A model generated the notes under the pieces. That model was not told where the DNA came from and made no database searches. It saw nothing but the letters and a program-made list of their open reading frames with translations. This document shows, one piece after another, positions 6,065 to 43,938 of a DNA stretch of 64,000 nt (the first letter of the stretch is position 1; each line of letters opens with the position of its first letter). A program made the translations under genes and the position numbers. The stretch comes from an uncultured Campylobacter sp. (GTDB lineage: Bacteria > Campylobacterota > Campylobacteria > Campylobacterales > Campylobacteraceae). The stretch covers positions 15,200 through 79,199 of the forward strand of contig CALKQT010000034.1 of NCBI GenBank assembly GCA_937990735.1. The letters are read 5' to 3'.

Positions 6065-6104
6065 TCGCGCGGGCTACATTTCGCGCCGATAGCCCTAAAT
6101 CTCA

Positions 6105-6420
6105 CGAACGAAATTTTATGATTTAAAATACAAAGCGAAATTTTACTTAAAATTTATAGCTATGAAATTTTAAAGCTAGTTCTAAATTTACGGCTCATAA
6201 AATTTCGATTTTAGAATTTTACGAGCGGTTTCGCGGCATTGCTACGGCGCTGTTCGTAAAATTTAAAATTTGGCTGCAAATTTACTGCTTGCGGAATTTC
6301 AAAATTTCAAAATTTTGCGGCGTGGAAGTTCGAAGTAAAATTTTAAAACAAGGCTTGAGGTACTAAAATTTTTGTGCAGATTAAATTTCATGCGACGAAA
6401 TTTAATTCGTAGAATTCTCC
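6105..6420. repeat. Intergenic RAATTY-rich short-period repeat block
   Basis: Dense AAATTT/GAATTT/AAATTC motifs (for example gcgaaattttac, ctatgaaatttta, cggaatttcaaaatttcaaaattttgcgg). No credible ORF. Confidence 0.7.
6141..6228 (+). repeat. Left copy of an approximately 90-bp dispersed direct repeat (partner at 7564..7653)
   Basis: ttttacttaaaatttatagctatgaaattttaaagctagttctaaatttacggct... aligns with ttttacttgaaattctatcgctatgaaattttaaggcttagttctaaatttagggct... The first 60 nt or so are nearly identical. Confidence 0.75.
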
Positions 6421-9514: not shown

Positions 9515-9784
9515 CTACGGATCGGATCGCTCATTTTCGCTACCGGCGGGAGCGCGTTTAAGTAGCTCCTGTTCGCGAGCGAATAATCTGCAAAATTTTT
9601 CCCAGTCGTGCAGATAGACGAGCCTGTGCTCTTTGCCATTTTCGTCTATGTAGATGCCTTGCGTCGAGCATAGGCTCATCTTTTGCCAGTAGCCGAAAAA
9701 CGGCAGTGCCTCGATGTCATCTTGCAGTACACCTCGCATCGTGCCGTTATCGTAAATTTTTAAATCATAATAAGTCATTTCCAT
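9515..9784 (-). CDS. Hypothetical small protein
   Basis: 89-aa ORF with no recognisable motif. Sits in a small accessory islet. Confidence 0.4.
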   Translation of the reverse strand: MEMTYYDLKIYDNGTMRGVLQDDIEALPFFGYWQKMSLCSTQGIYIDENGKEHRLVYLHDWEKFCRLFAREQELLKRAPAGSENERSDP

Positions 9785-9990
9785 TTTTAACCTTTCTAAA
9801 TTTTATATCTATGAAATTCTGCCGCGATAAAATTCTGCTTTCTTAAAATTTTATCGAGATAAAATTCCGTAAGTCGGATTTAGAATTTTAAAATTCCATG
9901 CGCCACGAAATTTGCTGTAAATTCCGCCCCTTTAAATTTTGCGGCGTCAATCCTCGATGAAGCCCTGTAGAATTTTACCGCAAGTAAAAT
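9785..9990. repeat. Intergenic RAATTY-rich short-period repeat block
   Basis: ctatgaaattctgcc, gataaaattctgc, cttaaaatttta, gataaaattccg, tagaattttaaaattcc, cgaaatttgc, gtaaattccgcc, ttaaattttgcgg. Confidence 0.7.
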
Positions 9991-10920
9991 TTAGCCTACC
10001 AGCGCCTTTAGCTGCTCGGCGTTTAGCCCATCCACCAAAATATAGCTCGTATCGATGAAGCGGTAGTTTTGCTTCGGCAGGCGCGCGATAAAATCGTCGT
10101 ATTCCAGCTCGGCGATTGCATGGTAGTTATCGGCGTCGTTTTCGTCGCCCTCGATGCCTATGAGTGCGATCTGCCAGCGCGCGACGTCGTTATTTTTCAG
10201 CATCTCCGTGTTTTGCCATTCCACAAACGGTTTGTAAGGCAGGATAGTAGGTAGGTCTTGCGTGAGCGCGTATGAGCCCATTATCGTGCCGTCATCTCCA
10301 TTTCGATAAAACCTCTGGCGCGCGCTGTAAGCGTCGAGATACTGCACCTCGGTTAGCCGCTTGCTAAACTCGGCAGAGGGGTTGTATGAGGCTAAAATTT
10401 CATCCATCATCGCGCGGTTTATCGCAAAAGGCCTCTCTACTCCGTAGCAAAAATTTACCTCCGTATCGCCACTTAAGTGCTGATCTATCGAATGCAGTCC
10501 CGCCGATATATCGCGCTCGTAGTCGAATTCCTCTATCCTGTCGTGGGTGTAAATTTCGCCGTTTTCATCCGCGATCTCGCCCCCCAGCTGCTTAGATAGC
10601 GCCTGTAGATATGAGATTGCCAAAACCCAATCAAATACCGTCGCTGGCGTATTTATGCGCACGGCGTAGCTTTGCTGCTCCTCGTCATATCTTAGCTCCA
10701 TCCCGCGCCCGCTCTTGCCTCGCACGCCCAAGATCAAGCACTCCTGCTCGCTCAAAGGCGATTTTAAAAACGCCCTCTCGTCAAAGTCCTCGGCGCTCTC
10801 GTCTATGCCAAATACCGATAGATCGGGTAGGAGCTCCAATGCCTTGCCTACGCTCATGGCGTCCGAATAGCCCATAAATAGCGGGCGCTTTTTGTTTTTG
10901 ACGCGGAATTCTACGCTCAT
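9991..10920 (-). CDS. Hypothetical protein (309 aa), no recognisable catalytic motif
   Basis: Start chosen at MSVEFRV (cat at 10918..10920), preceded by AAAGGAGAAAACG. The longer ORF to 10995 lacks an RBS. Confidence 0.6.
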   Translation of the reverse strand: MSVEFRVKNKKRPLFMGYSDAMSVGKALELLPDLSVFGIDESAEDFDERAFLKSPLSEQECLILGVRGKSGRGMELRYDEEQQSYAVRINTPATVFDWVLAISYLQALSKQLGGEIADENGEIYTHDRIEEFDYERDISAGLHSIDQHLSGDTEVNFCYGVERPFAINRAMMDEILASYNPSAEFSKRLTEVQYLDAYSARQRFYRNGDDGTIMGSYALTQDLPTILPYKPFVEWQNTEMLKNNDVARWQIALIGIEGDENDADNYHAIAELEYDDFIARLPKQNYRFIDTSYILVDGLNAEQLKALVG

Positions 10921-12408: not shown

Positions 12409-13386
12409 CTAGCCGCGAGCTTTGGCGATGCACGCCTCAATCGCCGCCATCACCGCTGCGCGAAACCCCGCAGCCTCCAGTGCCGCCAGCCCCTCAATCG
12501 TCGTGCCTGCAGGCGAGCAGACCGCGTCTTTAAGCTCCGATGGGCGCTTGCCTCTTTGTAGCAGGCGCGCCGTGCCCTCTACTGCCGCCGCTACCGCGTC
12601 GTAGCACAGCGCTCGCGGCAGTCCGCCCCGTACGCCCGCGTCTGCCGCCGCCTCGATAAAGGTGCACATATACGCAGGTAAGCTGCCAGCAATCCCCGTA
12701 AATGCGGCAAAACCAGCCTCGTCTATCTCGTAGAATTTGCCGATTTTGGCGGCTAGCGCTCGCACGATCTCCCGACTGGCCTCATCAAAATACTCGCCGT
12801 AGCACAGCGCCGTAGCTGACGCGCCGATACCCGCAGCGACGTTTGGCATCGCGCGGGCTACAAAAACGTCCGCACCTACGATATTTTGGGCGCACTCCAG
12901 CTTGAAATTCGGCGCCAAAAGAAGCAGGATTTTGCCCGCAAGCTCAGGCGCGATCAGGCGCAAAATCCCCTCGTAGCTGGCGGGCTTGGTCGCGAGCACG
13001 ATAATATCCGCTTCGTGCGCCAGCTGCGTCTCGCCTTGCAAAATTTGCACGCCGTAGCGCTTGCGTAAGGTTTCGTTTTTGCTTCTAGCATAAGCTAGGA
13101 CTTGAAGCTTCGTATCGGAGCTGGACTGTGCGTAAGAGGAATTTTGCCCGTCGCTAGCGGAATTTTGCATATCGGGCTCGGAATTCCGCTCGCAAGCGGT
13201 AAAATTTTGAGTATCGGGCATAAAATTCCGCCCGTCGTGCGCGCAATTCTCTCCGCTCGCTGCGCAATTTTCCTTATCCTCTGTAAAATTTTCTCTGCTC
13301 GCCGTGCAATTTTGCCCGCCAGCTTTGCAAAGTGCGGCGATCATCGCCTCGCCCATATTTCCGCCGCCGATAAATCCCACTTTCAT
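12409..13386 (-). CDS. proC: Pyrroline-5-carboxylate reductase carrying an in-frame heptad-repeat insertion of about 68 aa
   Basis: N-terminal Rossmann motif MKVGFIGGGNMGEAM. C-terminal PGGTTI-like motif SPAGTTIEGL. RBS AAAGGAGC before the ATG at 13386. The insertion lies between the first Rossmann helix and the next strand. Confidence 0.85.
   Translation of the reverse strand: MKVGFIGGGNMGEAMIAALCKAGGQNCTASRENFTEDKENCAASGENCAHDGRNFMPDTQNFTACERNSEPDMQNSASDGQNSSYAQSSSDTKLQVLAYARSKNETLRKRYGVQILQGETQLAHEADIIVLATKPASYEGILRLIAPELAGKILLLLAPNFKLECAQNIVGADVFVARAMPNVAAGIGASATALCYGEYFDEASREIVRALAAKIGKFYEIDEAGFAAFTGIAGSLPAYMCTFIEAAADAGVRGGLPRALCYDAVAAAVEGTARLLQRGKRPSELKDAVCSPAGTTIEGLAALEAAGFRAAVMAAIEACIAKARG
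13140..13328. repeat. Nine tandem 21-bp units, each starting with AATT (exact 21-bp phase), inside proC
   Basis: AATT at 13140, 13161, 13182, 13203, 13224, 13245, 13266, 13287 and 13308. The units diverge outside the core (aattttgcccgtcgctagcgg, aattttgcatatcgggctcgg, aattccgctcgcaagcggtaa, ...). Confidence 0.9.
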
Positions 13387-13502
13387 TTTCGCTCCTTTTA
13401 AAGCTAAATTATGCCTCAATGATAGCTCAAAATTTCTTTATCCGCCCTTGCGGCGCGCGGTTTATCTACGTAAAAGCAAATTTTAGCTACAATCTCGCCT
13501 AA

Positions 13503-14559: not shown

Positions 14560-15750
14560 TTGGCTAATACAAATCCACGCGGGCGCCGTAAAAAGCGCCA
14601 GATCAACTACGCAACGATCGCCTTTGTCGTAATCTTATGCTTTTTAAGCGGTGCGGTTACCTACGCGGTTTTGGATCTCGTATTTTCGGGCAATAAAGCC
14701 GCGTTGCAGCAAAGCTCGCGCAAACAAACTCCCGAGAGCCCTTCCGATTCTCGCGGTAAAAAGCCGCGTTTAAGCGCTGCACAGAAGGAAACTCTGATTC
14801 AAAAGGAGCTTGATAAGATCGCCGAGCAAAACGTAACCGCGCCTAAGATGAGCATCGAGCCCGCACGGCAGAATTCCGCAGGACAAAATTCTTCAAACGG
14901 CGATTCGCAAAATTCCGTAAATTCTATCGCTTCCTCAAATTCCGTCGCCGTAAATTCGGCAGGCGGCGGATCGGACGTAAATTTTACCGCGGCAAATTCC
15001 GCTTCAGAAAATTCCATAAATTCTACCGCGCAAAGCCACGCTTCTAGCGGCGCGGACGATCTTTCTAAATCGCCGCGCAAGGCTTTGCCCGCAGGCTCTC
15101 GCGCAAAGCTAGCGATCATCATCGACGACGTAGGTACCGGCGAGCAGGCGCAAAAGATTGCCGCGCTGCCCGTGCGAGTGACGCCATCCATCTTCCCGCC
15201 CGAGTATCAGCGCAAGGACACGCGCTCGCTCGCTCGCGGCTTTGAGCATTACGCGATCCACCTGCCGATGGAGGCGAGCTCTGCCAAAAATAATTCCGCG
15301 ACGCTGCGAGCTTCGGATAATTATGAAAAGCTGCAAGGCGTCATAGCGAAGCTACGCGCGGACTTTCCGAACGCTAAATTTATAAACAACCACACCGGTT
15401 CTAAATTTACCGCCGACGAGCGCGCGATGCAAAACCTACTGCGCGCGATGAACGAGCATGGATTTTTATTTATCGACTCGCGCACGAGCCCCGCTACCAA
15501 GGCTAAGGCGGCGATGAATGAGCTTGGCATGCGATACGTGCATCGCGATGTATTTTTGGATAATCAAAACAGCGTCGCCGCGGTGCGCAAAAAGCTGCGC
15601 GAAGCCGTCGCGCTTGCTAAAAAGCAGGGTTACGCCATCGCTATCGGCCATCCCAAAAGCTCCACTCTGCGCGCGCTTGCAAACAGCGCCGACATCCTAG
15701 GCGAGGTCGATTTAGTGTATTTGGACGAAATTTATGAGTACTACGAGTGA
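14560..15750 (+). CDS. Divergent polysaccharide deacetylase family protein (YibQ-like) with N-terminal TM anchor and low-complexity linker
   Basis: LAIIIDDVGTG...HLPMEA...INNHTGS...GHP motifs. TTG start. Confidence 0.75.
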   Translation: MANTNPRGRRKKRQINYATIAFVVILCFLSGAVTYAVLDLVFSGNKAALQQSSRKQTPESPSDSRGKKPRLSAAQKETLIQKELDKIAEQNVTAPKMSIEPARQNSAGQNSSNGDSQNSVNSIASSNSVAVNSAGGGSDVNFTAANSASENSINSTAQSHASSGADDLSKSPRKALPAGSRAKLAIIIDDVGTGEQAQKIAALPVRVTPSIFPPEYQRKDTRSLARGFEHYAIHLPMEASSAKNNSATLRASDNYEKLQGVIAKLRADFPNAKFINNHTGSKFTADERAMQNLLRAMNEHGFLFIDSRTSPATKAKAAMNELGMRYVHRDVFLDNQNSVAAVRKKLREAVALAKKQGYAIAIGHPKSSTLRALANSADILGEVDLVYLDEIYEYYE

Positions 15751-26554: not shown

Positions 26555-27110
26555 CTAGCGGAGCTCGGCGTAAAATTCCATGCAAAAATTCGACCGCTAA
26601 ATTTTAAAATTTTACGTAAAATTCCGCGCGGGCTAGGTCGTCGTAAAATCGCATGAAATTTTATAGCGGCAAAACACGGCGCCAAAAACAGGGGCGCAAT
26701 TTCAAATCAAAATTTGCGCACCGTTAGTGTAAATATAGAGCCAATTTTGTAGCGTTAAATTCTTTTTAGCGCATAGGTGCTGAAAATTTTAAACTAAAAT
26801 TTGCGCTAGACTGCAACGCCGTATGTTTTAGCCGCGATAAAATTCTGTGAAATTTTATCTCCGCAGCCGTTTATAAATTTCAAGTCTAAATTTTATATTT
26901 GCGCCCTGACGGCGCCATATTTTAGCCGCGTAGAATTTTGCCGCATAAAATACTGCCTAACAAAATTCTGCTGCGTAGATTTCAATTCACCGCGCTCAAA
27001 TTTTATCCGCCGCTCTGAAATTTATACCGCCGCGTCTAAATTTCTCCAGCCCGCCGCGCTTTACCGAAATTTATATTTAGTTGTTGTAAAATGCGTTTTT
27101 AAAAGGATTT
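26555..27110. repeat. Intergenic RAATTY-rich short-period repeat block (about 0.55 kb)
   Basis: No credible ORF. At the 3' end, AATT occurs at 26934, 26964, 26984, 26999, 27019, 27039 and 27068, mostly 15-20 bp apart, separated by GC-rich spacers (ccgccgc...). Confidence 0.75.
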
Positions 27111-27124
27111 TAGCGGTTTGTGAT

Positions 27125-27742
27125 ATGAGTATTTTAGAGTTTACAGAGTGCGTGGGCATCGCTTCGGCGGCGCTTAGCGGGTTTTTATTCGGCGTAAAGA
27201 AGGGCTGCGATTGGCTTGGGATCTTTATCGCGGCGTTTTTGACGGCGCTTGGCGGCGGGATCATGCGCGATACCTTAGTAAGCCGCGAAATCTACTCGTT
27301 TACGCACTATGCGCCCGTAACGATCGTGCTTGCAGTAAGCGCCGTAGCCATTTTTGCCAAGCTTTACGAAAACCGCGATTTGGAGGGTAAATTTTTATTT
27401 ATTCTAACCGATGCGATCGACGTCGTAAGCTTTTCGATCGTCGGAGCGATGGTCGCGCTAAGCTACAATCACAACGTTTTTGGCGTGGTGCTAATCGCAT
27501 TTTGCAACGGCGTGGGCGGCGGCATTTTGCGCGACGTACTGCTGAATGAAGTGCCGTGGTTTTTGCATACGGGGCTTTATGGCACGATAAGCATGGGCGT
27601 GGGCTTGATATATTTCGTGCTTGATGGATTGGGGCTTAGCGGCGCCTTTTCGGTGCTTATTTTGCTAGTTTTAGGGGTTGCGTTTCGCATGATGGCTTAT
27701 TACAAATCTTGGCATCTGCCTAAAGTGGAGTATAAAAAATGA
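27125..27742 (+). CDS. Trimeric intracellular cation channel (TRIC/UPF0126) family membrane protein
   Basis: Two UPF0126 repeats, each with a glycine-rich LGGGIMRD / VGGGILRD motif. Confidence 0.75.
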   Translation: MSILEFTECVGIASAALSGFLFGVKKGCDWLGIFIAAFLTALGGGIMRDTLVSREIYSFTHYAPVTIVLAVSAVAIFAKLYENRDLEGKFLFILTDAIDVVSFSIVGAMVALSYNHNVFGVVLIAFCNGVGGGILRDVLLNEVPWFLHTGLYGTISMGVGLIYFVLDGLGLSGAFSVLILLVLGVAFRMMAYYKSWHLPKVEYKK

Positions 27743-28908
27743 ACTATTTGATGGATAATTTCGCGCGCGTAAACGTAGCGCTAGTAAGAGGCGAGGGCTC
27801 GATAGTCTATGACGAAGCGGGCAAGGACTACGTGGATTTTGGCGCGGGCATCGGCGTAAACTGCCTGGGGCACGCAAACGAGATCGTGCTTGAAGCGATC
27901 GGCACGCAAGCCGCGCAGATCATCCACGGCTCAAATATCTATAGAATTCTGCCCCAAGAAGCCCTGGCTCAAAAGATTAGCGAGCTTTTAGGATACCGCA
28001 CATACGCGGTGTTTTGCAACTCGGGCGCGGAGGCTAACGAAGCTGCGATCAAAATGGCGCGCAAATACGGCACCGTAAACTTCCCTAATAAAAAATTTGA
28101 AATTCTAACTCTGCGAAATTCCTTCCACGGCCGCACGCTAGCGACGCTGCAAGCTACGGGGCAGGAGAAATTTCATCCGGAAATTTTTGCGCCCTATATG
28201 CCCGGGTTTAAATTTTTCGACGATATCGAGGATATCATCGCGCATATCGATGAAAATAGCGTCGCCGTGATGATAGAGCTAGTCCAGGGCGAGGGAGGTA
28301 TCAAGCCTCTGGATAAAGCTAGCGTGCAAAAGCTGGCGGCTGTTTTGAAAGAGAAAAAGCTGCTTTTGATCACCGACGAGGTGCAGTGCGGCGTATATCG
28401 CACGGGCGAGTTTGCGACGTCGCAAATTTACGACATCCGCCCCGACATCATCACCTTTGCCAAAGGTCTTGCGGGCGGCGTGCCGATCGGCGCGTGCGTG
28501 GCGCAGCAAAACATTTTCGCTCCGGGAGAGCACGGCAGCACCTTCGGCGGTAACTTTTTGGCGACCTCTACGGCGCTTGCGGTGCTTTCGCAACTTCAGT
28601 TTTTAAAAGCGAGCGGTAAGCTTGATAAGACTATAAAAAGATTTATCAAAAAACTAGACGGGCTCGCCGCAGACTATCCTAGCCTGATCGAAAAGCGCGT
28701 GGGGCTCGGTCTGATGCAAGGCCTCGTGCTGCGCGATGAAAAAAATCTGGGCGAGATCTTTAACAAAGCCCTGCAAAACGGACTTTTGATCCTAAAATCC
28801 GGCAAGCGCACCCTTAGATTTTTGCCTGCGCTAAATATCAAAAAACCGGAGATCAAAGAGGGCTTCGCGCGCCTACGCAAGAGCCTGGACGAGATAGTGC
28901 GGGCGTGA
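27739..28908 (+). CDS. argD: Acetylornithine aminotransferase (class III PLP aminotransferase)
   Basis: SGAEANEAAIK, DEVQCG..RTG, TFAKGLAGG (PLP lysine), GSTFGGN. Confidence 0.85.
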   Translation: MNYLMDNFARVNVALVRGEGSIVYDEAGKDYVDFGAGIGVNCLGHANEIVLEAIGTQAAQIIHGSNIYRILPQEALAQKISELLGYRTYAVFCNSGAEANEAAIKMARKYGTVNFPNKKFEILTLRNSFHGRTLATLQATGQEKFHPEIFAPYMPGFKFFDDIEDIIAHIDENSVAVMIELVQGEGGIKPLDKASVQKLAAVLKEKKLLLITDEVQCGVYRTGEFATSQIYDIRPDIITFAKGLAGGVPIGACVAQQNIFAPGEHGSTFGGNFLATSTALAVLSQLQFLKASGKLDKTIKRFIKKLDGLAADYPSLIEKRVGLGLMQGLVLRDEKNLGEIFNKALQNGLLILKSGKRTLRFLPALNIKKPEIKEGFARLRKSLDEIVRA

Positions 28909-29999
28909 AATTTAGCGATTTTTTTGAGGGCTGGCTAAACGAGAGCTACTACGCAAATGCCGCTAAAATCGGCAAGAGCGGCGATTTTTACACCGCCGTG
29001 AGCGTAGGAAGCTTCTTTGGGATCTGCATCGCGCGCGAAATTTTACGCCTAAGCGCGGATTTTGGCGCGAAGCAAGAGTTAAGCTTAGACGCGGCGGCAA
29101 GCCCAATTGCATCGCGGCAAAATTTTGCGGCGGCGTGCGAGCTAAATTTAGATGCTGTGCTCGCAGAAAAATCGCAAAATAACGCTAAAATCGCTATCGT
29201 AGAGATAGGATCGCACGACGGGCGACTGCTTTGCGACATAGTGCAAGCTATCTTTACGCTGGGCGGTGCGGCGGCGCTTGATAAATTTAGCTTCGCGATT
29301 ATCGAGCCGCACGAGCGCCTGCGCGAGCTGCAGCGGGCGAGCTTTGCGGAGAGCTTCGGCGGCGAAATCGCGCTAAAGCACTTCGCAAGCGCGCGCGAGG
29401 CGAAATTTAAAGATGCGATCTTTGTGGCAAATGAGCTTTTCGACGCCTTTAAATGCGAGGCGGTGGACGGCGAAAATATGCTTTTTATCGAAAGCGGTGC
29501 GGCAAAATTTGCTCCCATAAAAGAAAGTGAAATTTTGACCCTCGCGCGCAGATTCGGCATCTCGCGCGGCGAAATCCCGATCGGATGCTTTCGCTTTGCG
29601 CGCGAAATTTGCGCCAGCGCGCAGCGGTTTTATTTCATCGCCTTTGATTACGGACAGATGGGCTCTAGCGGCGATTTTAGCCTGCGGATTTACCGAAATC
29701 ACGAGGTTTTTAGCTTCTTTGAGGTGCAAAACTTGAGCGATTTTTACGGCAAAAGCGATCTTACCTACGACGTAAATTTTGAAATTTTACGTGCGGCGTT
29801 TGAGGACGCGGGCGCCGTGACGGCGGATTTTAAAAGACAGATCGCGGCTTTGATAGACTTCGGCGCGGTCCAGCTTTTAGAGCTTTTTATGCAAAAAAGC
29901 GGAGAGAAGGGCTACCTAAATGCGCTTTTGCAGTTCAATCACCTGCGCGCTGAGTTTGGCGAAAAGTTTAAGATGATAAAATTTAAAAAGGGGCTTTGA
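28905..29999 (+). CDS. SAM-dependent methyltransferase, MidA/NDUFAF7 (DUF185) family, with a short low-complexity insertion
   Basis: DFYTAVSVGSFFG, IVEIGSHDGRL, FVANELFDAF patterns. GTG start overlaps the argD stop. Confidence 0.65.
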   Translation: MKFSDFFEGWLNESYYANAAKIGKSGDFYTAVSVGSFFGICIAREILRLSADFGAKQELSLDAAASPIASRQNFAAACELNLDAVLAEKSQNNAKIAIVEIGSHDGRLLCDIVQAIFTLGGAAALDKFSFAIIEPHERLRELQRASFAESFGGEIALKHFASAREAKFKDAIFVANELFDAFKCEAVDGENMLFIESGAAKFAPIKESEILTLARRFGISRGEIPIGCFRFAREICASAQRFYFIAFDYGQMGSSGDFSLRIYRNHEVFSFFEVQNLSDFYGKSDLTYDVNFEILRAAFEDAGAVTADFKRQIAALIDFGAVQLLELFMQKSGEKGYLNALLQFNHLRAEFGEKFKMIKFKKGL

Positions 30000-30325
30000 T
30001 GAAAGCTTTTATCGATTGCGACTGCGAAATTTTGCAAAGGACGCTGGAGCTGTTTTTGAAGGATCGCGCTACAAGTGCGCAGGATTGCGACTTTGTGATA
30101 AGCGATGAGCCACAAAGCTCGGCAAAACCGCTATTTTTGATCGGCGAGGGCGGAGATCTGACGCTACCGTTTTCAAAGAGTGCCTTGCTATCGAAGCTGG
30201 AGGATTTTCAAGGCTCGCTAAAGCGGGATTTTAGCGAATATGACGCGGCGGAAGAGGAAATTTGCGCTCTATTTGATGAGTTTAAGGCAAGAATCATCGA
30301 AATTTTAAGAAGGCAAAATGGCTAA
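29996..30325 (+). CDS. Hypothetical protein (109 aa)
   Basis: ORF translationally coupled on both sides (ATGA overlap upstream, 8-nt overlap downstream). No recognisable motif. Confidence 0.5.
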   Translation: MMKAFIDCDCEILQRTLELFLKDRATSAQDCDFVISDEPQSSAKPLFLIGEGGDLTLPFSKSALLSKLEDFQGSLKRDFSEYDAAEEEICALFDEFKARIIEILRRQNG

Positions 30326-31775
30326 ATTTTCCAAACCCGCCGGCGCGCTCTTTACGCAAATCTCAAGCGGCATTTATAGGGGCAAAAAGCTCGCTCTGCC
30401 CGCGTTTTCGAGTACGCGCAGCACGAAAAGCATCGTAAAGGGCTCGTTTTTCGATACTTGGCGGGCGGAGTTGCGCGGCGCGGCGTTTATCGAGTGCTTC
30501 GGCGGTAGCGGCGCGATGGCGCTTGAAGCGCTAAGTAACGGCGCAAAAAACGTTTATGCGATCGAAAAGGATGTCGCCGCGCATAAGATAATGCGGAAAA
30601 ATTTCGAGTTTTTTGGGCTCGGCGCAAACGCGATTTTGGGTGATTGTTTCGAGCGACTACCCGAAATTTTGCACGAGCTGCAAGCGGATATGAACGGACG
30701 CTCGGGCGCGAATTCGCTAAATTTAAGCGGCAAAAATTTAGACAAAAACCATGCCGCCACCTACCGCAAAAATTTAGACGGCGAAAAAGACGGCTGTCGC
30801 AAAAGCTTTAGTGGCGTAGAGCAGGGCGAGAACCCATACTGCGGCACGCAAAGCGTAGAAGTGGAAGACGGCACGCAAAGCGGCGTGAAAGATTTTGCAA
30901 AATGCGGTACGCAAAACAGCGTGTCTTACGGCACGCAAAATGGCGCGCAGGGCGGCGCAAATGATGATTGCGCAGGCGAGGGTTTTGGCGATTGTGCCCA
31001 GATTAACGATTATGCGGGCGCTTCTAGTATAAAATATCGTGCGAATTCGCTAACTACGGATGCCGCGAGCTTTGGCGAAAAGGTTGACGATAACTGCGCT
31101 TCTCAATACGACGCGAGCGGCACCGAGACCGCTAATTGCAACTTAAATTTAAGCTCAAAATGCAGCGAGAGCTCTAATTTTGACGCAAATCGCGGTGCGG
31201 GCTTAGGCGCGAGCTGCGAAGAGAAAGAAATCTTAAATTTAGGCGAAAATTTTGATTCTAGCTGCAGAAAAAGTTTACATTCAAGCGCAAATTTCGTCTA
31301 TGATTCAAGAAAAAATTCCACTGCGAATTCTGACGGCAATTTTGGCGCTAGTTGCGAAGAAAATTCGCGCCCAAACGTAAATTTAACCCGTGGTTCAGGA
31401 AAAAATTTCGCCACCAACTCCCGTGAAAATTTAGCATGCGGTTTAGGCGAAAGCTCTACCGCAAACGATTTAGGCAAATGTTCTGCTGCAAATTCTAGCG
31501 AAAGCCATACCGTAAATTCTAGTGAAAATTCCGTCTCCGATCCCGCGCGCAGAGTGTTTGTCTATCTAGATCCGCCGTTTGCGATCAGGCAGGGCTTTGG
31601 CGAGATTTACGAGCGGGTGCTGGCGCTGATAGCGCGCCTAGGCTCCGTGCGGTGCGAGCTGCCAATCGCGATCGAGCATATGAGCGAGCTTGAGCTGCCG
31701 CCTAAAATCGGCGATTTCGCGCTGCTTAAATCGCGCAAATTCGGCGCTACGACGATGAGCTACTACGTAAAATGA
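30318..31775 (+). CDS. rsmD: RsmD-family 16S rRNA (guanine-N2)-methyltransferase split by an in-frame low-complexity insertion of about 288 aa
   Basis: N-terminal 121 aa (GIYRGKKL..P....TRST...VKGS.F, motif I ECFGGSGAMALEALS) and C-terminal 76 aa (motif IV VYLDPPF) together make a normal RsmD of about 197 aa. Confidence 0.7.
   Translation: MAKFSKPAGALFTQISSGIYRGKKLALPAFSSTRSTKSIVKGSFFDTWRAELRGAAFIECFGGSGAMALEALSNGAKNVYAIEKDVAAHKIMRKNFEFFGLGANAILGDCFERLPEILHELQADMNGRSGANSLNLSGKNLDKNHAATYRKNLDGEKDGCRKSFSGVEQGENPYCGTQSVEVEDGTQSGVKDFAKCGTQNSVSYGTQNGAQGGANDDCAGEGFGDCAQINDYAGASSIKYRANSLTTDAASFGEKVDDNCASQYDASGTETANCNLNLSSKCSESSNFDANRGAGLGASCEEKEILNLGENFDSSCRKSLHSSANFVYDSRKNSTANSDGNFGASCEENSRPNVNLTRGSGKNFATNSRENLACGLGESSTANDLGKCSAANSSESHTVNSSENSVSDPARRVFVYLDPPFAIRQGFGEIYERVLALIARLGSVRCELPIAIEHMSELELPPKIGDFALLKSRKFGATTMSYYVK
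30681..31544. repeat. Low-complexity, AATT-rich coding insertion inside rsmD
   Basis: Asn-[LSFC]-rich translation (NSLNLSGKNLDKN, NFDANRG, NFGASCEEN, NSSESHTVNSSENS). Internal repeats CGTQS/DGTQS/CGTQN/YGTQN and GASCEE(K/N). Confidence 0.65.
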
Positions 31776-32560
31776 AAAGCTTAAAGCAAATTTTAGATTA
31801 TTACGCCGATTTGAAAAATTGCGACGCGGATCTTTTCGGCGCGCCCGATCCGCTGCAGGTCGCAAAGGGACATCGAAACGACGTCGTAGCGCTCATCTGC
31901 GCGCTGTTTGCTTACGGTAACGCGGCTCAAATTTTAAAATTTCTCCACTCGCTTGATTTTTCGCTTTTAGACGGGAGCGATGAGCGCATTAGCGCGGAGC
32001 TTGCGGGCAAAAAATATAGATTTCAAAGCCCGCGCGACGTCGCTGAAATTTTTATAACTTTAAAGCGGCTTAAAAATAGCCTTAGCATCGAGGAGAGCGT
32101 GCTTCGCGGCATGCAAAAAAACGGACGGATCGAGGATGGGATAAATTTTTTAATCGGCGAGATTTACAGATTAAACCCCTACCGCAGCCCGGGATATGAG
32201 TTTTTTTTCGGGCGCGGCTTCGCGCAAAAGCCCACGTCTCCGTACAAGCGCTACAATCTCTTCCTGCGCTGGGCGGTGCGCGACAGCGACATCGATCTGG
32301 GGCTGTATAGAAAGATCGAAAAATCGCGCCTCCTCATCCCGCTCGATACCCATACGCATAAAGTTTCGCTTAAGCTTGGGCTGATCGATCGCAAGAGTTA
32401 CGATTTTGAGGCGGTTTTGCAGCTTACGCAAAGCTTAAGGCGCTTCGATCCGAGCGATCCCATCAAATACGACTTCGCGCTGTATCGCCTCGGACAGAGC
32501 GGCGAGATAGATAAAATTTTACCCGAACTGGGCGCAAATTTAAACAAAACCGCGGAGTAA
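31772..32560 (+). CDS. TIGR02757 (DUF2400) family protein
   Basis: DPLQ.......D.V.ALICALFAYGNA.QI and LIPLDTHT patterns recalled for this family. ATGA overlap with rsmD. Confidence 0.65.
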   Translation: MKSLKQILDYYADLKNCDADLFGAPDPLQVAKGHRNDVVALICALFAYGNAAQILKFLHSLDFSLLDGSDERISAELAGKKYRFQSPRDVAEIFITLKRLKNSLSIEESVLRGMQKNGRIEDGINFLIGEIYRLNPYRSPGYEFFFGRGFAQKPTSPYKRYNLFLRWAVRDSDIDLGLYRKIEKSRLLIPLDTHTHKVSLKLGLIDRKSYDFEAVLQLTQSLRRFDPSDPIKYDFALYRLGQSGEIDKILPELGANLNKTAE

Positions 32561-32564
32561 GTCG

Positions 32565-33060
32565 GCGGAATTTTACCTAACACGAGCTATGAAATTTTAT
32601 GAAGCTTTAGTGCGGGTGTGTGACGGAATTTTGCGCTGTTTTGCTACCGCATAAGTAGGGCCGGCTTTATGGATTTTGCCGTACGCCTTGAGTGCGGCGC
32701 GCCGAAATTTTATAGAATTTTGGTAAAAGATCACTTCATAAATTTCTGCAAATTTCACGGATAGATGCGCGAAATTTATAGGGCTATCTTGTAGAATTTG
32801 GGTAAAATTCCACAGCCTTGTGTTATTAAAATTTTATGAAATTTTGCAGCTCGCGCACGACGCGATAAATTGCATGGAGCTAAAACGGCAATCGCGCGGT
32901 AAATTTCATAAAATTTAAGCAGGAGCCGTGCGGCAAAATCCGATATAATTCCGTGGAATTTTATAAAATTGCATGGAATTCTAGCAGGCGCTCGTATGCA
33001 CTTTGCGGTGCATGAGCGGTTTGCGATCGTAATTGCGCGGAATTCTGGCAGGCGTTCATA
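32565..33060. repeat. Intergenic RAATTY-rich short-period repeat block (about 0.5 kb)
   Basis: gctatgaaatttta, acggaattttgcgc, ccgaaatttta, tagaattttgg, cataaatttctgc, gcaaatttcacgg, gcgaaatttata, gtagaatttggg, gtaaaattcc and so on. Confidence 0.7.
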
Positions 33061-33094
33061 GCGTGTGCCTGTGTGATTTGAGAAAAGGATAAAA

Positions 33095-41972: not shown

Positions 41973-42611
41973 ATGGAAAAATCGCGGCTGGGACTACTGC
42001 AAACCGAGGCTATCGCCACGCTTAGCGACGAGGAGCTTGCAATGTTCGAGCACCAAGTCATTAAAAAAGGCTATGTTTTTTATAGCGAGGCGCCTAAAGT
42101 TTTTATTTTTAAAAGCGGGCAGGCGAAGCTTTCGTTTTTTGAAGACGGCGAAGAATTCATCATCAACTACCTAAATAAGGACAATATTACCATTCTTAAT
42201 GAAATTTGCGCGCTTGAGTTTTTAGAGGACAGCGAAATTTATACGATCGATGCGAGCGGACTAGGGGATATCTTGGCAAATCGCAGTTTTTGCGAGGCGT
42301 ATATAAAAATTTTAACAGAGATAATTCTGCTGCAGCGCAAAATCACACGCTCTATACTTTTTGAAAATGCAAAAGGGCGCATCGCGAGCTTTTTGATCGA
42401 GCTTGCAAACGAGCAGAATTTTCATCAAAATGGCTACAAATACGTCTTTTTGCCCTTTTCGCTAAAGGTGCTTTCATCCTTCGTGGGGCTCAAGCGCCAA
42501 AGCGCGAGTACCGCGTTTAATGAGCTTGTAAAAGATAACGTAATTCAAAAAATCAGTCAGCACGAGTTTTTGATCCTGGACTACGACAGATTGCTTAGCT
42601 ACTGTGTTTAG
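41973..42611 (+). CDS. Crp/Fnr family transcriptional regulator
   Basis: N-terminal cNMP-binding-like beta-roll, a RIASFLIELA linker helix, and a C-terminal HTH (LSSFVGLKRQSASTAFNELVKDNVI). No N-terminal Fnr-type Cys cluster is seen. Confidence 0.8.
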   Translation: MEKSRLGLLQTEAIATLSDEELAMFEHQVIKKGYVFYSEAPKVFIFKSGQAKLSFFEDGEEFIINYLNKDNITILNEICALEFLEDSEIYTIDASGLGDILANRSFCEAYIKILTEIILLQRKITRSILFENAKGRIASFLIELANEQNFHQNGYKYVFLPFSLKVLSSFVGLKRQSASTAFNELVKDNVIQKISQHEFLILDYDRLLSYCV

Positions 42612-42614
42612 GCT

Positions 42615-43010
42615 CGGGCTAGAGTTTTTAAAGCATTTATGCGGCTTACGTTACGGCTTAAGCGCGAAATTTTGTCTAAAGTTACGGCGCAAAATTTTGC
42701 CTAGATTTACAGCATAAAATTTTTATCAAGAGCTTGGTTTTAGAATTCCATCCCGAATTTCGTTTAGGATTTCGTCTAAAATTTTAACTTATATAAAATT
42801 TGGGTTTGTGATCTCGTTTAAAATTTTAACGCGTAATTCGCTTTTGGATTTTATCCGCTATCCTAAAACGCAAAGCTTTGGAATTTTAAATTTAGCGGCA
42901 GGCTATGGAATTTAAAATTTTAAATCAAGCTGGAATTTTATGGGTTGCAATGGAATTTAAAATTTTGGATCGAACGAAATTTTACGTATCGGAATTTTTA
43001 AAATTTAAGA
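42615..43010. repeat. Intergenic RAATTY-rich short-period repeat block
   Basis: gcgaaattttgtc, gcaaaattttgcc, cataaaattttta, ttagaattccatcccgaatttcg, ctaaaattttaac, tatggaatttaaaattttaaatc, ctggaattttatgg, aatggaatttaaaattttgg. Confidence 0.7.
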
Positions 43011-43039
43011 AATTAAAAATGCGCGGCAAAGTGCCGCGC
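43008..43039 (-). terminator. Rho-independent terminator downstream of focA (end of the hyf-focA operon)
   Basis: Perfect 8-bp GC-rich stem gcgcggca/tgccgcgc (43021..43039) with a 3-nt loop. On the minus strand it is followed by ATTTTTAATTTCTT. Confidence 0.55.
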
Positions 43040-43074
43040 CGTATTTTGTTTATATCGTGCTGAAGCGCGATAGA

Positions 43075-43938
43075 TTAGTCTTTCTTTTTCATATCGTATT
43101 TATTGACCATAAATCCGACCAAGCCTACGAAAAATAGACCGCCGCAGATGTTGCCTAGCGTAACCGGGATCATATTTTTAACGATGAAATTTCCCCAGTT
43201 TATTGAATCTATTTGAGCCGCTGTTACGCCGTGAAGCGAGCTTGCAAGAGCATTTACATCGCCACCCGCAGCCGCAAGGTAGTGGCCTTTAGCGATGATG
43301 CCTTCAGTTAGGATAAACATATTTGCCACGCAGTGTTCCATCGAGCAAGCTACGAATGCGCCGATCATCCACATAATTGCAAAGAATTTACCCGATAGAT
43401 TGCTCTCGCTGGTCGCAGTCCAGATAGACATACATACAAACACGTTACAAAAAATTCCGCGAATGAATAGCTCATGAAAAGGTGCGTTTATTTTGCCGGC
43501 TGCCGCAGGAATGAAGTGTTGCAAGATGTAGCCGTCATATTTAAGCGGAAGTCCTGAGTAATAATACATATACGCGATTAACGCGCCGCCTACGAAGTTA
43601 AAGCACCAAACGATAGCCCAATAGCCGATAGTTTTACCTAGCGGTAATTTGCCGTCGGCAGCAGGTACGCCCGTTAAAACCGAGCTAGTAAATAGATGCC
43701 CACCGTAAAAAACCACCATCATCAGACCGCAGCTAAAGGTAATACCGCCGATGAAATTCGATAAGCCAATAGATTGCTTTTCAGCCATTCCGACGGTCGA
43801 GTGAGCCCAGAAAATATCGCCCATAGCGATTGCAGCGCCCGCCATTATAGCTAGAAAAATTATGCTAATTAGCGGGGTATGCGCCTTGTGTTGCATCGAA
43901 CTAGACACCGCTTGCGCGGTTTCTGCAGGATTTAACAT
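43075..43938 (-). CDS. focA: Formate/nitrite transporter family channel (formate channel FocA-like)
   Basis: 287 aa, six TM segments. FNT signatures (GG.LFTS, central His in SMEHCVANMF). RBS GAGGAGGAG. Directly follows hycI. Confidence 0.9.
   Translation of the reverse strand: MLNPAETAQAVSSSMQHKAHTPLISIIFLAIMAGAAIAMGDIFWAHSTVGMAEKQSIGLSNFIGGITFSCGLMMVVFYGGHLFTSSVLTGVPAADGKLPLGKTIGYWAIVWCFNFVGGALIAYMYYYSGLPLKYDGYILQHFIPAAAGKINAPFHELFIRGIFCNVFVCMSIWTATSESNLSGKFFAIMWMIGAFVACSMEHCVANMFILTEGIIAKGHYLAAAGGDVNALASSLHGVTAAQIDSINWGNFIVKNMIPVTLGNICGGLFFVGLVGFMVNKYDMKKKD

What the first reader, a model, noticed from the sequence alone, without database searches (positions are those of the whole stretch)
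30681..31544. About 288-aa low-complexity insertion splitting the RsmD methyltransferase fold
Residues 1-121 (through motif I, FGGSGAMALEALS, and …FERLPEIL) and residues 410-485 (VFVYLDPPF…) together make a normal RsmD of about 197 aa. Between them lie about 864 bp of Asn/Ser/Gly/Cys-rich sequence full of AAT-T codon pairs (NSLNLSGKNLDKN, NFDANRG, NFGASCEEN, NSSESHTVNSSENSVS). It also has internal peptide repeats (CGTQS, DGTQS, CGTQN, YGTQN, and GASCEEK / GASCEEN). This is the largest in-frame expansion in the window and more than doubles the protein. The gene is translationally coupled to its neighbours, so it is probably expressed.
Basis: partly seen in the sequence, partly recalled or inferred. 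Interest (0 to 1): 0.75.

Follow-up and report, generated by a model that had tools for sequence, protein, structure and literature searches.

The report
Disordered, motif-studded insert inside Campylobacter RsmD
A small ribosomal-RNA methylase of a Campylobacter gracilis-type bacterium carries a real, translated but dispensable 288-residue floppy loop whose protein sequence drifts almost freely, while eighteen copies of the six-base DNA word RAATTY inside it are frozen, so it is mainly a DNA-level feature read through by the ribosome.

Summary
ORF 30318-31775 (+) is a 485-aa RsmD whose halves (residues 1-121 and 410-485) form one contiguous RsmD match when joined. The intervening 864 bp hit no protein or RNA family and are predicted to be disordered.

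The gene is not a pseudogene. All 49 complete alleles from the C. gracilis clade keep the frame open, and core dN/dS is 0.13. The insert is dispensable and unstable: it is 29, 100 or 226-320 aa long in different lineages, and indels end at short direct repeats.

The insert DNA behaves like intergenic DNA. GC is flat across codon positions, diversity is nearly equal at the three positions, and RAATTY density is 21/kb, the same as in spacers. It has two constraints: no stop codons, and exact preservation of the RAATTY hexamers, including at synonymous sites (Asn codon AAT 595, AAC 1; preceding four-fold base purine 262, pyrimidine 0).

RAATTY is about 9-fold over-represented across the window. 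In C. jejuni it is the methylated mark required for DNA uptake.

Best reading: a tolerated loop expansion built and remodelled by repeat-mediated slippage, and populated by a genome-wide selected DNA motif. A link to DNA uptake is inferred, not shown.

The parts
30318..31775 (+). rsmD ORF (485 aa plus stop). It overlaps the upstream ORF stop by 8 nt and the downstream ORF start by 4 nt.
30318..30680 (+). N-terminal half of the RsmD core (residues 1-121): beta-hairpin, motif I FGGSGAM, IEKD, strand beta-3 and helix alpha-C (..FERLPEILHEL).
   Evidence: pLDDT is 90-97. Aligns to E. coli YhhF (2fpo) residues 10-103.
30681..31544 (+). 288-aa low-complexity insert (residues 122-409): Ser 15%, Asn 12%, Gly 11%, Cys 4.5%. 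Predicted disordered. GC is flat across codon positions.
31545..31772 (+). C-terminal half of the RsmD core (residues 410-485): strand beta-4 with motif IV (VFVYLDPPF) through to the C-terminus.
   Evidence: pLDDT is 88-98.
30710..30775 (.). First cluster of four conserved in-phase RAATTY hexamers, starting at 30710, 30719, 30734 and 30770.
   Evidence: Retained in 34-38 of 38 long alleles.
31043..31048 (.). Isolated conserved RAATTY (GAATTC).
   Evidence: Retained in 36 of 38 alleles.
31145..31531 (.). Thirteen conserved in-phase RAATTY hexamers, starting at 31145, 31235, 31247, 31289, 31313, 31325, 31361, 31379, 31403, 31427, 31490, 31514 and 31526. This is the degenerate ~30-aa-repeat part of the insert.
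30841..30957 (+). Five degenerate 18-nt direct repeats (ACGGCACGCAAAGCGGCG) encoding CGTQS / DGTQS / CGTQN / YGTQN. Several 4-24-codon indels among strains fall here.
30699..30715 (+). 5' copy (CGCTCGGGCGCGAATTC) of the imperfect 17-nt direct repeat that bounds the natural 260-codon deletion.
31479..31495 (+). 3' copy (TGTTCTGCTGCAAATTC) of the same direct repeat, exactly 780 nt downstream of the 5' copy.

Best explanation
The feature is a lineage-specific, intrinsically disordered expansion of the surface loop between helix alpha-C and strand beta-4 of a functional RsmD (16S rRNA m2G966 methyltransferase) in the Campylobacter gracilis clade.

Shown here:
- The two halves of the enzyme are intact, under purifying selection, and predicted to reassemble into the RsmD fold.
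- The insert is translated as a frame: no allele has a stop or a frameshift.
- At least 260 of its 288 residues are dispensable, and its length is unstable.
- It changes by whole-codon duplications and deletions whose ends lie in short direct repeats, most of them containing RAATTY.
- Apart from keeping the frame open, the strongest constraint on it acts on DNA rather than protein. The palindromic hexamer RAATTY is preserved exactly, with R and Y free to vary only within purine or pyrimidine, the AATT core invariant, and the flanks free. The rest of the insert drifts.
- RAATTY is strongly over-represented throughout the window. It is densest in intergenic DNA, and the insert has the intergenic density.

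Inferred:
- The insert began as a short in-frame slippage product in a permissive loop. It grew by repeat-mediated duplication and is tolerated because it points away from the SAM and RNA pocket.
- All RAATTY copies sit in phase AAT-TYN for two reasons. That phase reads as polar Asn-Ser/Phe/Leu without stops, and in-frame duplication copies the phase.
- The hexamers are kept for the same genome-wide reason that acts in spacers and at synonymous sites of ordinary genes. The most likely reason is recognition by the genus-wide RAATTY N6-adenine methyltransferase (CtsM type), whose mark is required for DNA uptake in C. jejuni. Transformation would then favour motif-rich alleles, by an uptake-sequence-like drive.

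On this reading the protein-level function of the insert is none, or marginal.
For: **RsmD identity and split**
- PF03602 matches in two stretches.
- TIGR00095 scores 122 bits above its cut-off, and 134 bits as one contiguous stretch once the insert is removed.
- Relatives are 177-205 aa long and match as two stretches.

**Fold**
- AlphaFold2 with 104 sequences gives pLDDT 90-98 for residues 11-125 and 411-485. Residues 132-405 have pLDDT 31-50 and no secondary structure.
- The best Foldseek hits are RsmD structures 6m1c, 2fpo and 3p9n. One alignment (2fhp) spans both halves with a target-normalised TM-score of 0.83.

**Function retained**
- Core dN/dS is 0.13, against 0.46 for the insert.
- 49 of 49 complete alleles are intact.

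**Dispensable and unstable**
- Insert lengths are 29 aa (10 lineages), 100 aa, and 226-320 aa.
- Short alleles are scattered in a star-like tree and are no more closely related to each other than long alleles are.
- The short alleles show two different junctions within one 17-nt imperfect repeat.
- There are 25 distinct whole-codon gap blocks, whose ends lie in direct repeats.

**DNA-like evolution**
- Diversity (pi) at codon positions 1/2/3 is 0.130/0.129/0.152 in the insert, against 0.028/0.039/0.125 in the core.
- GC1/2/3 is .465/.497/.462 in the insert, against .545/.439/.657 in the core.

**Motif constraint**
- pi is 0.036 in the RAATTY hexamers and 0.149 in the rest of the insert. In a permutation test the null mean is 0.1445 (sd 0.018), p <= 1e-4.
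- At the motif Asn codons: AAT 595, AAC 1, other 4. At other two-fold codons of the insert, 8.9% of comparisons show a synonymous change.
- At four-fold codons just before the motif, the third base is purine 262, pyrimidine 0. The background in the insert is 1275:2517.
- Per position: R = A503/G131/C4/T0; AATT present in at least 635 of 638; Y = C271/T365/A1/G1; flanking positions carry all four bases.

**Genome-wide pattern**
- 644 RAATTY in the window, against 208 +/- 14 in dinucleotide-preserving shuffles.
- Per kb: RAATTY 10.1, YAATTR 0.5, RTTAAY 0.25.
- 81% of all AATT tetramers are flanked R..Y.
- Intergenic density is 21.6/kb, coding about 7/kb, and the insert 20.8/kb.
- In the flanking normal genes, third-position pi is 0.049 inside RAATTY and 0.132 outside.

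**Recurrence**
- Four other ORFs of the window carry phase-0 RAATTY inserts.
- Independent RsmD inserts in other Campylobacter lineages carry 19 and 25 phase-0 RAATTY.

**Literature**
- C. jejuni imports only DNA methylated by CtsM at RA(m6)ATTY (PMC10046745).
- RAATTY methylation is reported in all C. fetus and 'many other Campylobacter species', and the motif is under-represented in prophage (PMC13436318).
- Uptake sequences accumulate in particular reading frames and in poorly conserved protein segments (PMC2817400).
Against: - No expression, proteomic or activity data were available.
- Non-motif codons of the insert have dN/dS of about 0.48, not 1. Some protein-level or compositional constraint therefore exists, at least against stop codons and probably against hydrophobic residues.
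- A-runs outside the motif are also conserved (AAAA pi 0.045), and GC-rich tetramers are unusually variable (0.22-0.24). Part of the contrast may therefore reflect a general mutational bias.
- The intergenic control was much less clean: pi 0.20 in the motif against 0.31 outside it, and 0.24 in AT-rich controls.
- The polarity of short versus long alleles could not be rooted.
- RAATTY methylation, a CtsM homologue and natural competence were not shown for this organism. The uptake link is extrapolated from C. jejuni.
- Almost all comparison sequences are metagenome-assembled genomes.
- Low-complexity sequence can bias alignments.
Confidence: 0.7

Rival explanations
1. The insert is a functional protein module: a disordered tether, an interaction or condensate-forming (Asn/Ser/Gly-rich, prion-like) region, or a Cys-bearing redox or metal sensor that modulates RsmD or recruits it to the 30S subunit. 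On this view the conserved Asn-X dipeptides are selected as amino acids.
For: - Insert dN/dS is 0.46-0.48, which is below 1.
- The long form is kept in about 80% of clade lineages.
- Several non-motif residues are invariant among 22 alleles.
- There are 13 Cys residues in the insert.
- RsmD loops have expanded repeatedly across Campylobacterota, including Helicobacter saguini.
Against: - Variability is nearly equal at the three codon positions, and GC is flat across them.
- The conserved unit is defined at synonymous positions: AAT versus AAC is 595:1, and the preceding four-fold third base is 262 purine to 0 pyrimidine. It is exactly the DNA word RAATTY with free flanks, which amino-acid selection cannot produce.
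- 29-aa and 100-aa alleles persist in 11 species-level lineages, and the deletion appears to have recurred.
- No family hit and no predicted structure.
Confidence: 0.12
2. The RAATTY hexamers are kept for a DNA-structural or chromosome-organising reason unrelated to methylation or uptake, for example AnTn bending or binding of a nucleoid or segregation protein. The insert merely offers unconstrained DNA in which they can sit.
For: - The enrichment is graded: AAATTT 391, AAATTC plus GAATTT 222, GAATTC 31. There is an extended T-A ... T-A context preference.
- A-runs and an AAAAGCTTT island in the insert are also conserved.
- TTAA-type hexamers are depleted.
Against: - GAATTC sites, which have no A-tract, are retained as well as AAATTT sites (38/38, 36/38, 29/29).
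- At single sites A/G and C/T interchange freely, while transversions are absent and the flanks are free. That is the signature of a sequence-specific R/Y-degenerate recognition identical to the known genus-wide methyltransferase specificity.
- No helical-repeat periodicity is seen in the spacing between sites.
Confidence: 0.15
3. The insert is a discrete selfish element: an in-frame MITE like the Rickettsia palindromic elements, an intein, or an intron or other intervening sequence that is removed or bypassed.
For: In-frame insertion into a surface loop of a housekeeping enzyme resembles RPEs (PMC10969869). The insert's translation weakly matches its own reverse-complement translation.
Against: - No other copy is found in the 64-kb window by blastn or tblastn beyond motifs of 17 nt or less.
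- There are no terminal inverted repeats at the insert boundaries.
- There is no Hint/intein or endonuclease domain, and no Cys/Ser/Thr at the junctions.
- There is no Rfam intron or other RNA family.
- The ORF is kept open in every allele, which splicing or bypass would not require.
- Length varies continuously by local duplication and deletion.
Confidence: 0.02
4. The locus is a decaying pseudogene or an assembly artefact.
For: Unusual composition, and a protein more than doubled in length.
Against: - More than 120 clusters of near-full-length homologues come from independent assemblies.
- 49 of 49 alleles are intact.
- Core dN/dS is 0.13.
- Catalytic motifs are invariant.
- There are no in-frame stops, against about 16 expected.
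Confidence: 0.01

Closest known systems
Canonical RsmD / YhhF (E. coli 2FPO; M. tuberculosis Rv2966c 3P9N/6M1C), 16S rRNA m2G966 methyltransferase
   Same: Same family by Pfam and by the NCBIfam equivalog. It has the same motifs (GxGxG motif I, DPPF motif IV) and the same predicted fold for residues 1-131 plus 410-485.
   Different: Canonical members are about 180-200 aa long, with a 3-8-residue alpha-C/beta-4 loop. Here that loop is 288 residues of disordered low-complexity sequence, and it is length-polymorphic within the clade.
DNA uptake sequences (USS/DUS) in coding regions of Haemophilus and Neisseria (Findlay & Redfield 2009, PMC2817400)
   Same: A short DNA word is over-represented genome-wide. 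Within genes it occurs in preferred reading frames and in poorly conserved protein segments, and it inflates the frequency of the peptides it encodes. A drive linked to transformation is proposed.
   Different: - USS/DUS are 9-12-bp asymmetric sequences bound directly by the uptake machinery.
- RAATTY is a 6-bp palindrome that in C. jejuni acts through m6A methylation (PMC10046745).
- Uptake bias is untested in this organism.
- Here motif clusters make up whole inserts of tens to hundreds of residues, rather than being threaded into existing sequence.
Rickettsia palindromic elements inserted in frame into protein genes (PMC10969869 and references therein)
   Same: Repetitive DNA is read through as extra peptide in surface-compatible positions of unrelated housekeeping enzymes. 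Several genes in one genome are affected.
   Different: RPEs are discrete ~100-150-bp mobile elements with conserved family sequences. Here the inserts share no element-level homology, only the hexamer and the composition, and they grow and shrink locally.
Cyanobacterial Highly Iterated Palindrome HIP1 (GCGATCGC) (bioRxiv 10.1101/2024.09.10.611283, abstract seen)
   Same: A hyper-abundant palindrome. According to that preprint's title and abstract, it improves natural transformation in a homology- and methylation-dependent way.
   Different: Different sequence, length and phylum. From my own knowledge, not checked here, HIP1 is not known to build large low-complexity protein inserts.
Asn-rich low-complexity inserts in Plasmodium falciparum housekeeping proteins (e.g. 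PMC3140889, listed)
   Same: Polar, Asn-rich, length-polymorphic, slippage-generated loops sit inside conserved enzymes and are tolerated rather than required.
   Different: That case is eukaryotic, with homopolymer-like runs driven by extreme AT bias and no conserved embedded DNA word. Here the genome is 48% GC, and the Asn codons are fixed as AAT by a palindromic hexamer.

Membership tests
RsmD (16S rRNA m2G966 methyltransferase; PF03602 / TIGR00095) | Profile match above the curated cut-off | tested here: met
   PF03602 scores 114 bits (cut-off 24). TIGR00095 scores 122.2 bits (cut-off 117.5) for the full protein, and 134 bits as one contiguous stretch without the insert.
RsmD (16S rRNA m2G966 methyltransferase; PF03602 / TIGR00095) | SAM-binding motif I (GxGxG), acidic residue after beta-2, and motif IV DPPF/Y | tested here: met
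   FGGSGAM (residues 61-67), IEKD (82-85) and LDPPF (417-421). The Gly63, Glu83 and Asp-Pro-Pro-Phe columns are invariant among diverse relatives.
RsmD (16S rRNA m2G966 methyltransferase; PF03602 / TIGR00095) | Class I methyltransferase fold with N-terminal beta-hairpin, superposable on solved RsmD structures | tested here: met
   Core pLDDT is 90-98 in the AF2 model. Foldseek top hits are 6m1c, 2fpo and 3p9n (E 3e-9 to 8e-8). 2fhp spans both halves with TM(target) 0.83.
RsmD (16S rRNA m2G966 methyltransferase; PF03602 / TIGR00095) | Methylates G966 of 16S rRNA in 30S subunits | not testable with these tools
   Needs rRNA mass spectrometry or primer extension, or complementation of an rsmD mutant.
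Intein | Hint domain blocks: nucleophile at the N-terminal junction, and His-Asn plus Cys/Ser/Thr at the C-terminal junction | tested here: not met
   No Pfam hit to the insert. The junctions are HEL|QADM and SDP|ARRV.
In-frame MITE / RPE-like mobile element | Discrete element with terminal inverted repeats and homologous copies elsewhere | tested here: not met
   No inverted repeat at the insert ends. No other copy in the window. Only 64 kb of this genome could be searched.
Tandem-repeat / contingency (phase-variable) locus | Head-to-tail array or homopolymeric tract | tested here: not met
   TRF finds nothing at score 30 or above. Only degenerate dispersed repeats are present.
Intron or other structured intervening RNA | Match to a group I/II intron or other Rfam model | tested here: not met
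   Only a chance CRISPR-DR hit outside the insert, E 0.78.
Uptake-sequence-like / highly iterated genomic motif (RAATTY) | Strong genome over-representation specific to the motif | tested here: met
   644 observed against 208 +/- 14 in shuffles. Twenty-fold more frequent than YAATTR. 81% of AATT tetramers are flanked R..Y.
Uptake-sequence-like / highly iterated genomic motif (RAATTY) | Conservation beyond coding needs (synonymous sites) | tested here: met
   The intergenic control was weaker.
Uptake-sequence-like / highly iterated genomic motif (RAATTY) | Cognate RAATTY m6A methyltransferase present and sites methylated in this organism | not tested
   Known for C. jejuni, C. coli and C. fetus. 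No methylome or ctsM homologue was examined for the C. gracilis clade.
Uptake-sequence-like / highly iterated genomic motif (RAATTY) | Preferential uptake or transformation of motif-bearing DNA | not testable with these tools
   Shown only for C. jejuni (PMC10046745).

The most novel reading that the evidence does not exclude
RAATTY is the Campylobacter counterpart of a DNA uptake sequence or highly iterated palindrome. Its methylation-dependent role in self-DNA uptake creates a transformation-linked drive that holds motif density at about 6-12 per kb whatever the GC content. In the GC-richer C. gracilis clade this requires about 9-fold enrichment. It carpets the spacers, fixes synonymous sites, and builds and maintains in-frame Asn-Ser/Phe/Leu low-complexity inserts in permissive loops of housekeeping proteins. 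The RsmD insert is the extreme case.
Probability: 0.3. Interest if true: 0.8.

Novelty: new variant of a known kind. Interest (0 to 1): 0.6.

Why it matters
As a protein feature alone this is a curiosity: an enzyme that tolerates a disordered loop longer than itself.

It becomes interesting because the insert acts as a natural probe of DNA-level selection. With protein constraint nearly removed, it shows that exactly the hexamer RAATTY is being preserved. R and Y vary only within their class, synonymous positions are frozen, and the flanks are free. The same word is enriched about 9-fold across the genome.

This makes an open question directly testable: does the methylated RAATTY mark that gates DNA uptake in C. 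jejuni shape genomes and proteomes across the genus, as USS and DUS do in Pasteurellaceae and Neisseria?

It also has a practical use. Annotators and structure predictors can treat the Asn-rich inserts in these genomes as read-through motif DNA, not as domains or errors.

Tried and rejected
- First AF2 run, with 22 close homologues: unusable (mean pLDDT 28.8). Repeating it with 104 diverse sequences worked.
A 6-sequence alignment worked.
- Tandem Repeats Finder found no array in the insert.
- The Rfam scan found nothing relevant.
- tblastn and blastn of the insert against the window found no second copy. They found only a weak self-antisense match caused by the palindromic motif.
- The neighbour-joining tree of flanking DNA was star-like, and its midpoint root (L047) is probably an artefact of non-homologous flank. 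It could not polarise short versus long alleles.
- The intergenic control for motif conservation was noisy, because two divergent spacer haplotypes are present.
- Literature searches for low-complexity inserts, or for a methylome, of C. gracilis returned nothing relevant. Beauchamp et al. 2017, the primary CtsM paper, is not in the searchable library and is cited only through PMC10046745.
- N-glycosylation sequons as a reason for the conserved Asn were considered and rejected. RsmD is cytoplasmic, the D/E-x-N-x-S/T pattern is mostly not met, and the conservation extends to synonymous sites.
Full report
**1. What is there**

The window has a 485-aa ORF at 30318-31775 on the + strand. It lies in a run of overlapping genes:
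- an aminotransferase-like gene (27739-28908),
- a Methyltransf_28 protein (28905-29999),
- a 109-aa ORF (29996-30325),
- this gene,
- and a DUF2400 protein (31772-32560).

The protein matches Pfam PF03602 and the NCBIfam RsmD equivalog TIGR00095 above their cut-offs, in both cases as two stretches. I joined residues 1-121 to 410-485 in silico. The resulting 197-aa product matches both profiles end to end as a single stretch, and with a higher score (134 bits).

A full HMMER scan of 1.84 billion representative proteins returned relatives that are mostly 177-205 aa long. These align as two stretches on either side of residues about 122-410.

The 288 intervening residues hit nothing in Pfam or NCBIfam. 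The DNA hits nothing in Rfam. Tandem Repeats Finder sees no array. A repeat search does recover the degenerate 18-nt family that encodes CGTQS/DGTQS/CGTQN/YGTQN, and the GASCEEK/GASCEEN pair.

The insert frame has no stop codon. The other two + frames have 21 and 19, and shuffles of the same composition average 15.7 (0 of 20,000 are stop-free).

**2. Where it sits in the enzyme**

The alignment to E. coli YhhF/RsmD (2fpo) places the break between the end of helix alpha-C and the strand that carries motif IV (VFVYLDPPF).

- An AlphaFold2 run on 22 close homologues failed.
- A run on 104 diverse sequences gave pLDDT 90-98 for residues 11-125 and 411-485. Residues 132-405 had pLDDT 31-50 with no secondary structure.
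- Foldseek against the PDB returned RsmD structures first (6m1c, 2fpo, 3p9n). One alignment (2fhp) bridges the insert with a target-normalised TM-score of 0.83.

From general knowledge of class I methyltransferase topology, the loop entering beta-4 lies on the face opposite the SAM and substrate pocket. That would explain why the insert is tolerated. This last step is inference, not a measurement.

**3. Comparative picture**

Close homologues are annotated as Campylobacter gracilis or uncultured Campylobacter. A scan of one genome per GTDB species gave 54 loci of this clade.

- All 49 complete alleles (48 from these loci plus the window's own) are intact. Insert length is 29 aa in 10 lineages, 100 aa in one, and 226-320 aa in the rest.
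- Outgroup Campylobacter species have no insert (185-189 aa). Two have an unrelated ~40-aa insert at the same site.
- The 29-aa form equals the first ~8 plus the last ~21 residues of the long insert.
- The deleted 260 codons are bounded by an imperfect 17-nt direct repeat ending in RAATTC (30699-30715 and 31479-31495).
- Nine short alleles carry one hybrid junction and one (L052) carries another, as expected if crossovers occurred at different points of that repeat.
- Short alleles are scattered through a star-like tree and are no more similar to each other than long alleles are.

Among all alleles I found 25 distinct gap blocks, all whole codons. Their ends lie in short direct repeats, mostly containing RAATTY. 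They include a 30-codon tandem duplication and several 30- and 63-codon deletions.

So the insert is dispensable, it is remodelled continually by repeat-mediated slippage or unequal exchange, and it is never allowed to break the frame.

**4. How it evolves**

| Measure | Core | Insert |
|---|---|---|
| dN/dS | 0.13 | 0.46 (0.48 without motif codons) |
| Diversity (pi) at codon positions 1/2/3 | 0.028 / 0.039 / 0.125 | 0.130 / 0.129 / 0.152 |
| GC1 / GC2 / GC3 | .545 / .439 / .657 | .465 / .497 / .462 |

The insert therefore looks like non-coding DNA that must stay open. It carries at most a weak compositional constraint on the peptide.

**5. The unexpected part**

All are in the phase xxR-AAT-TYx, in this allele and in essentially every other allele. 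They are islands of conservation.

- pi is 0.036 in the hexamers and 0.149 in the rest of the insert. A permutation null has mean 0.1445 and sd 0.018, p <= 1e-4.
- The conservation is at the DNA level:
  - The Asn codon is AAT 595 times, AAC once and another codon 4 times. Other two-fold codons of the insert show 8.9% synonymous differences.
  - Where the preceding codon is four-fold degenerate, its third base is a purine 262 times and a pyrimidine never. The insert background is 1275:2517.
- Position by position, R is A503/G131/C4/T0, AATT is invariant in at least 635 of 638, and Y is C271/T365/A1/G1. Single sites are polymorphic A/G or C/T, and the two positions on each side carry all four bases.

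The selected unit is therefore exactly RAATTY. Amino-acid selection cannot produce this pattern.

There are caveats. A-runs outside the motif are also fairly conserved, and GC-rich tetramers are unusually variable. A noisier intergenic alignment showed only a modest motif effect.

**6. It is a genome property**

- The window holds 644 RAATTY, against 208 +/- 14 in dinucleotide-preserving shuffles.
- Density is 10.1 per kb, against 0.5 for YAATTR and 0.25 for RTTAAY.
- 81% of all AATT tetramers are flanked R..Y.
- Density is about 7/kb in genes with no phase preference overall, 21.6/kb between genes, and 20.8/kb in the insert.
- In the ordinary genes flanking rsmD, third-position diversity is 0.049 inside RAATTY and 0.132 outside.
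- Four other ORFs of the window carry shorter inserts of the same kind, with the motif again in phase 0: arginyl-tRNA synthetase, pyrroline-5-carboxylate reductase, a divergent polysaccharide deacetylase, and a 694-aa protein.
- Independent RsmD inserts in other Campylobacter lineages, some in a different loop, carry 19 and 25 phase-0 RAATTY.
- Other Campylobacter loci have 6-12 RAATTY per kb at 33-45% GC. A Sulfurospirillum locus has 1.5.
- Published counts imply about 8/kb in C. jejuni and about 7/kb in C. fetus.

**7. Mechanism**

Shown:
- The enzyme is intact and under purifying selection.
- A disordered, dispensable, length-unstable loop is read through by the ribosome.
- Indel ends lie at direct repeats.
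- RAATTY is preserved at the DNA level, here and in neighbouring genes.
- The motif is strongly enriched across the window.

Inferred:
- The loop expansion arose and grew by in-frame slippage or duplication between motif-containing microhomologies. It is neutral or nearly so for RsmD.
- Phase 0 prevails because it reads as Asn-Ser/Phe/Leu rather than Lys/Glu-Phe or Ile and avoids stops, and because in-frame duplication propagates the phase.
- The hexamers are maintained by whatever maintains them genome-wide.

The best candidate for that force is the genus-wide RAATTY N6-adenine methyltransferase. Its mark is required for DNA uptake in C. jejuni (PMC10046745). It is reported as universal in C. 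fetus and common in other Campylobacter species, with the motif under-represented in prophage (PMC13436318). This would give an uptake-sequence-like drive of the kind analysed for USS and DUS in coding regions (PMC2817400). I put about 0.3 on that specific link. A structural or nucleoid role is the main alternative for the DNA-level constraint.

**8. Comparison with known things and verdict**

The protein is a member of the RsmD family; every testable criterion is met. It is not an intein, a MITE/RPE-type element, an intron, a tandem-repeat contingency locus or a pseudogene; each was tested and not met.

It resembles several known cases:
- Rickettsia palindromic elements, in that repetitive DNA is read through in permissive loops of several housekeeping genes (PMC10969869).
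- USS and DUS, in reading-frame and location bias.
- Cyanobacterial HIP1, as a hyper-abundant palindrome that improves transformation in a methylation-dependent way.
- Plasmodium Asn-rich inserts.

It differs from all of these because the only shared unit is a conserved 6-bp palindrome embedded in otherwise drifting, locally generated sequence. I found no description of this in the searchable literature.

I rate it a new variant of a known kind, with interest 0.6. The insert as such is an oddity. The DNA-level footprint it exposes is surprising and directly testable.

Noticed in passing
whole window 1-64000: The RAATTY hexamer occurs 644 times, against 208 +/- 14 in dinucleotide-preserving shuffles and about 75 expected from base composition. 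81% of all AATT tetramers are flanked R..Y. AAATTT occurs 391 times, AAATTC plus GAATTT 222 times, and GAATTC 31 times. The extended context prefers T-A on each side.
   Followed up: yes
window 58750-59350, 26555-27100, 6100-6420, 9750-9995, 42610-43075: Intergenic spacers are carpeted with RAATTY every 7-25 bp (21.6 per kb overall). The motifs are typically embedded as (T/C/G)AAAATTY and separated by short GC-rich runs. There is no clear helical periodicity.
   Followed up: partly
window 4268-6064 (+), residues ~139-168: Arginyl-tRNA synthetase carries a ~50-aa Asn/Ser-rich insert (SQNSATRQNFISQNSEEASNSIAASNCDEARNS) with RAATTY in phase 0, between the N-terminal and catalytic domains.
   Followed up: partly
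window 12409-13419 (-), residues ~33-100: Pyrroline-5-carboxylate reductase has a ~67-aa insert of 7-aa-like repeats (RENFTED, KENCAAS, GENCAHD, GRNFMPD, TQNFTAC, ERNSEPD, MQNSASD). It splits the NADP-binding Rossmann domain just after the GxGxxG motif. TRF sees a period-21 array at 13243-13313.
   Followed up: partly
window 14560-15750 (+), residues ~105-154; and 1338-3422 (+), residues ~483-503: A divergent polysaccharide deacetylase (PF04748) and a 694-aa protein also carry phase-0 RAATTY low-complexity segments (QNSAGQNSSNGDSQNSVNS...; NFAASTNFSNTGTTNSTPAPNFS).
   Followed up: partly
window 31231-31452, both strands: The insert's translation weakly matches the translation of its own reverse complement (tblastn E 4e-4). 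This is a side effect of the dense palindromic hexamers. There is no long antisense ORF.
   Followed up: yes
L081 27-1058; L082 1070-2143; proteins P0126, P0128, P0145, P0146, P0148, P0150, P0155, P0167: RsmD is a recurrent target of low-complexity expansion across Campylobacterota. Independent inserts occur in the alpha-B/beta-3 loop, the alpha-C/beta-4 loop, the alpha-D/beta-5 loop, the beta-6/beta-7 hairpin and the N-terminus. One example is a 425-aa RsmD in Helicobacter saguini with Leu-Glu-Ser-Asn and Lys-rich repeats.
   Followed up: partly
protein P0121 (492 aa, Logan assembly): A clade allele in which the middle of the insert is replaced by unrelated low-complexity sequence while both ends are kept. 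This suggests segmental replacement as well as simple indels.
   Followed up: no
window 30782-30811 and 31031-31036: Besides RAATTY, a few A-rich islands in the insert are invariant among 38 alleles: CGAAAAAG, CGCAAAAGCTTTAG (which contains the palindrome AAAGCTTT) and AAAATA. GC-rich tetramers such as GCGC and CGCG are the most variable.
   Followed up: partly
window 32561-33094 and homologous spacers in L001-L054: The spacer downstream of the DUF2400 gene exists as two divergent haplotype groups (about 29 versus 9 of 38 lineages), although the flanking genes are similar.
   Followed up: no
window 27739-32560: Five consecutive genes overlap by 4 or 8 nt (ATGA-type junctions): aminotransferase, Methyltransf_28, a 109-aa ORF, rsmD and DUF2400. 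This looks like a tightly coupled operon. A frameshift in the insert could therefore also disturb translation of the downstream gene.
   Followed up: partly
L082 2212-4419: In another Campylobacter lineage, the insert-bearing rsmD lies directly upstream of a pglB (STT3) oligosaccharyltransferase gene. This gene neighbourhood differs from the one in the window.
   Followed up: no
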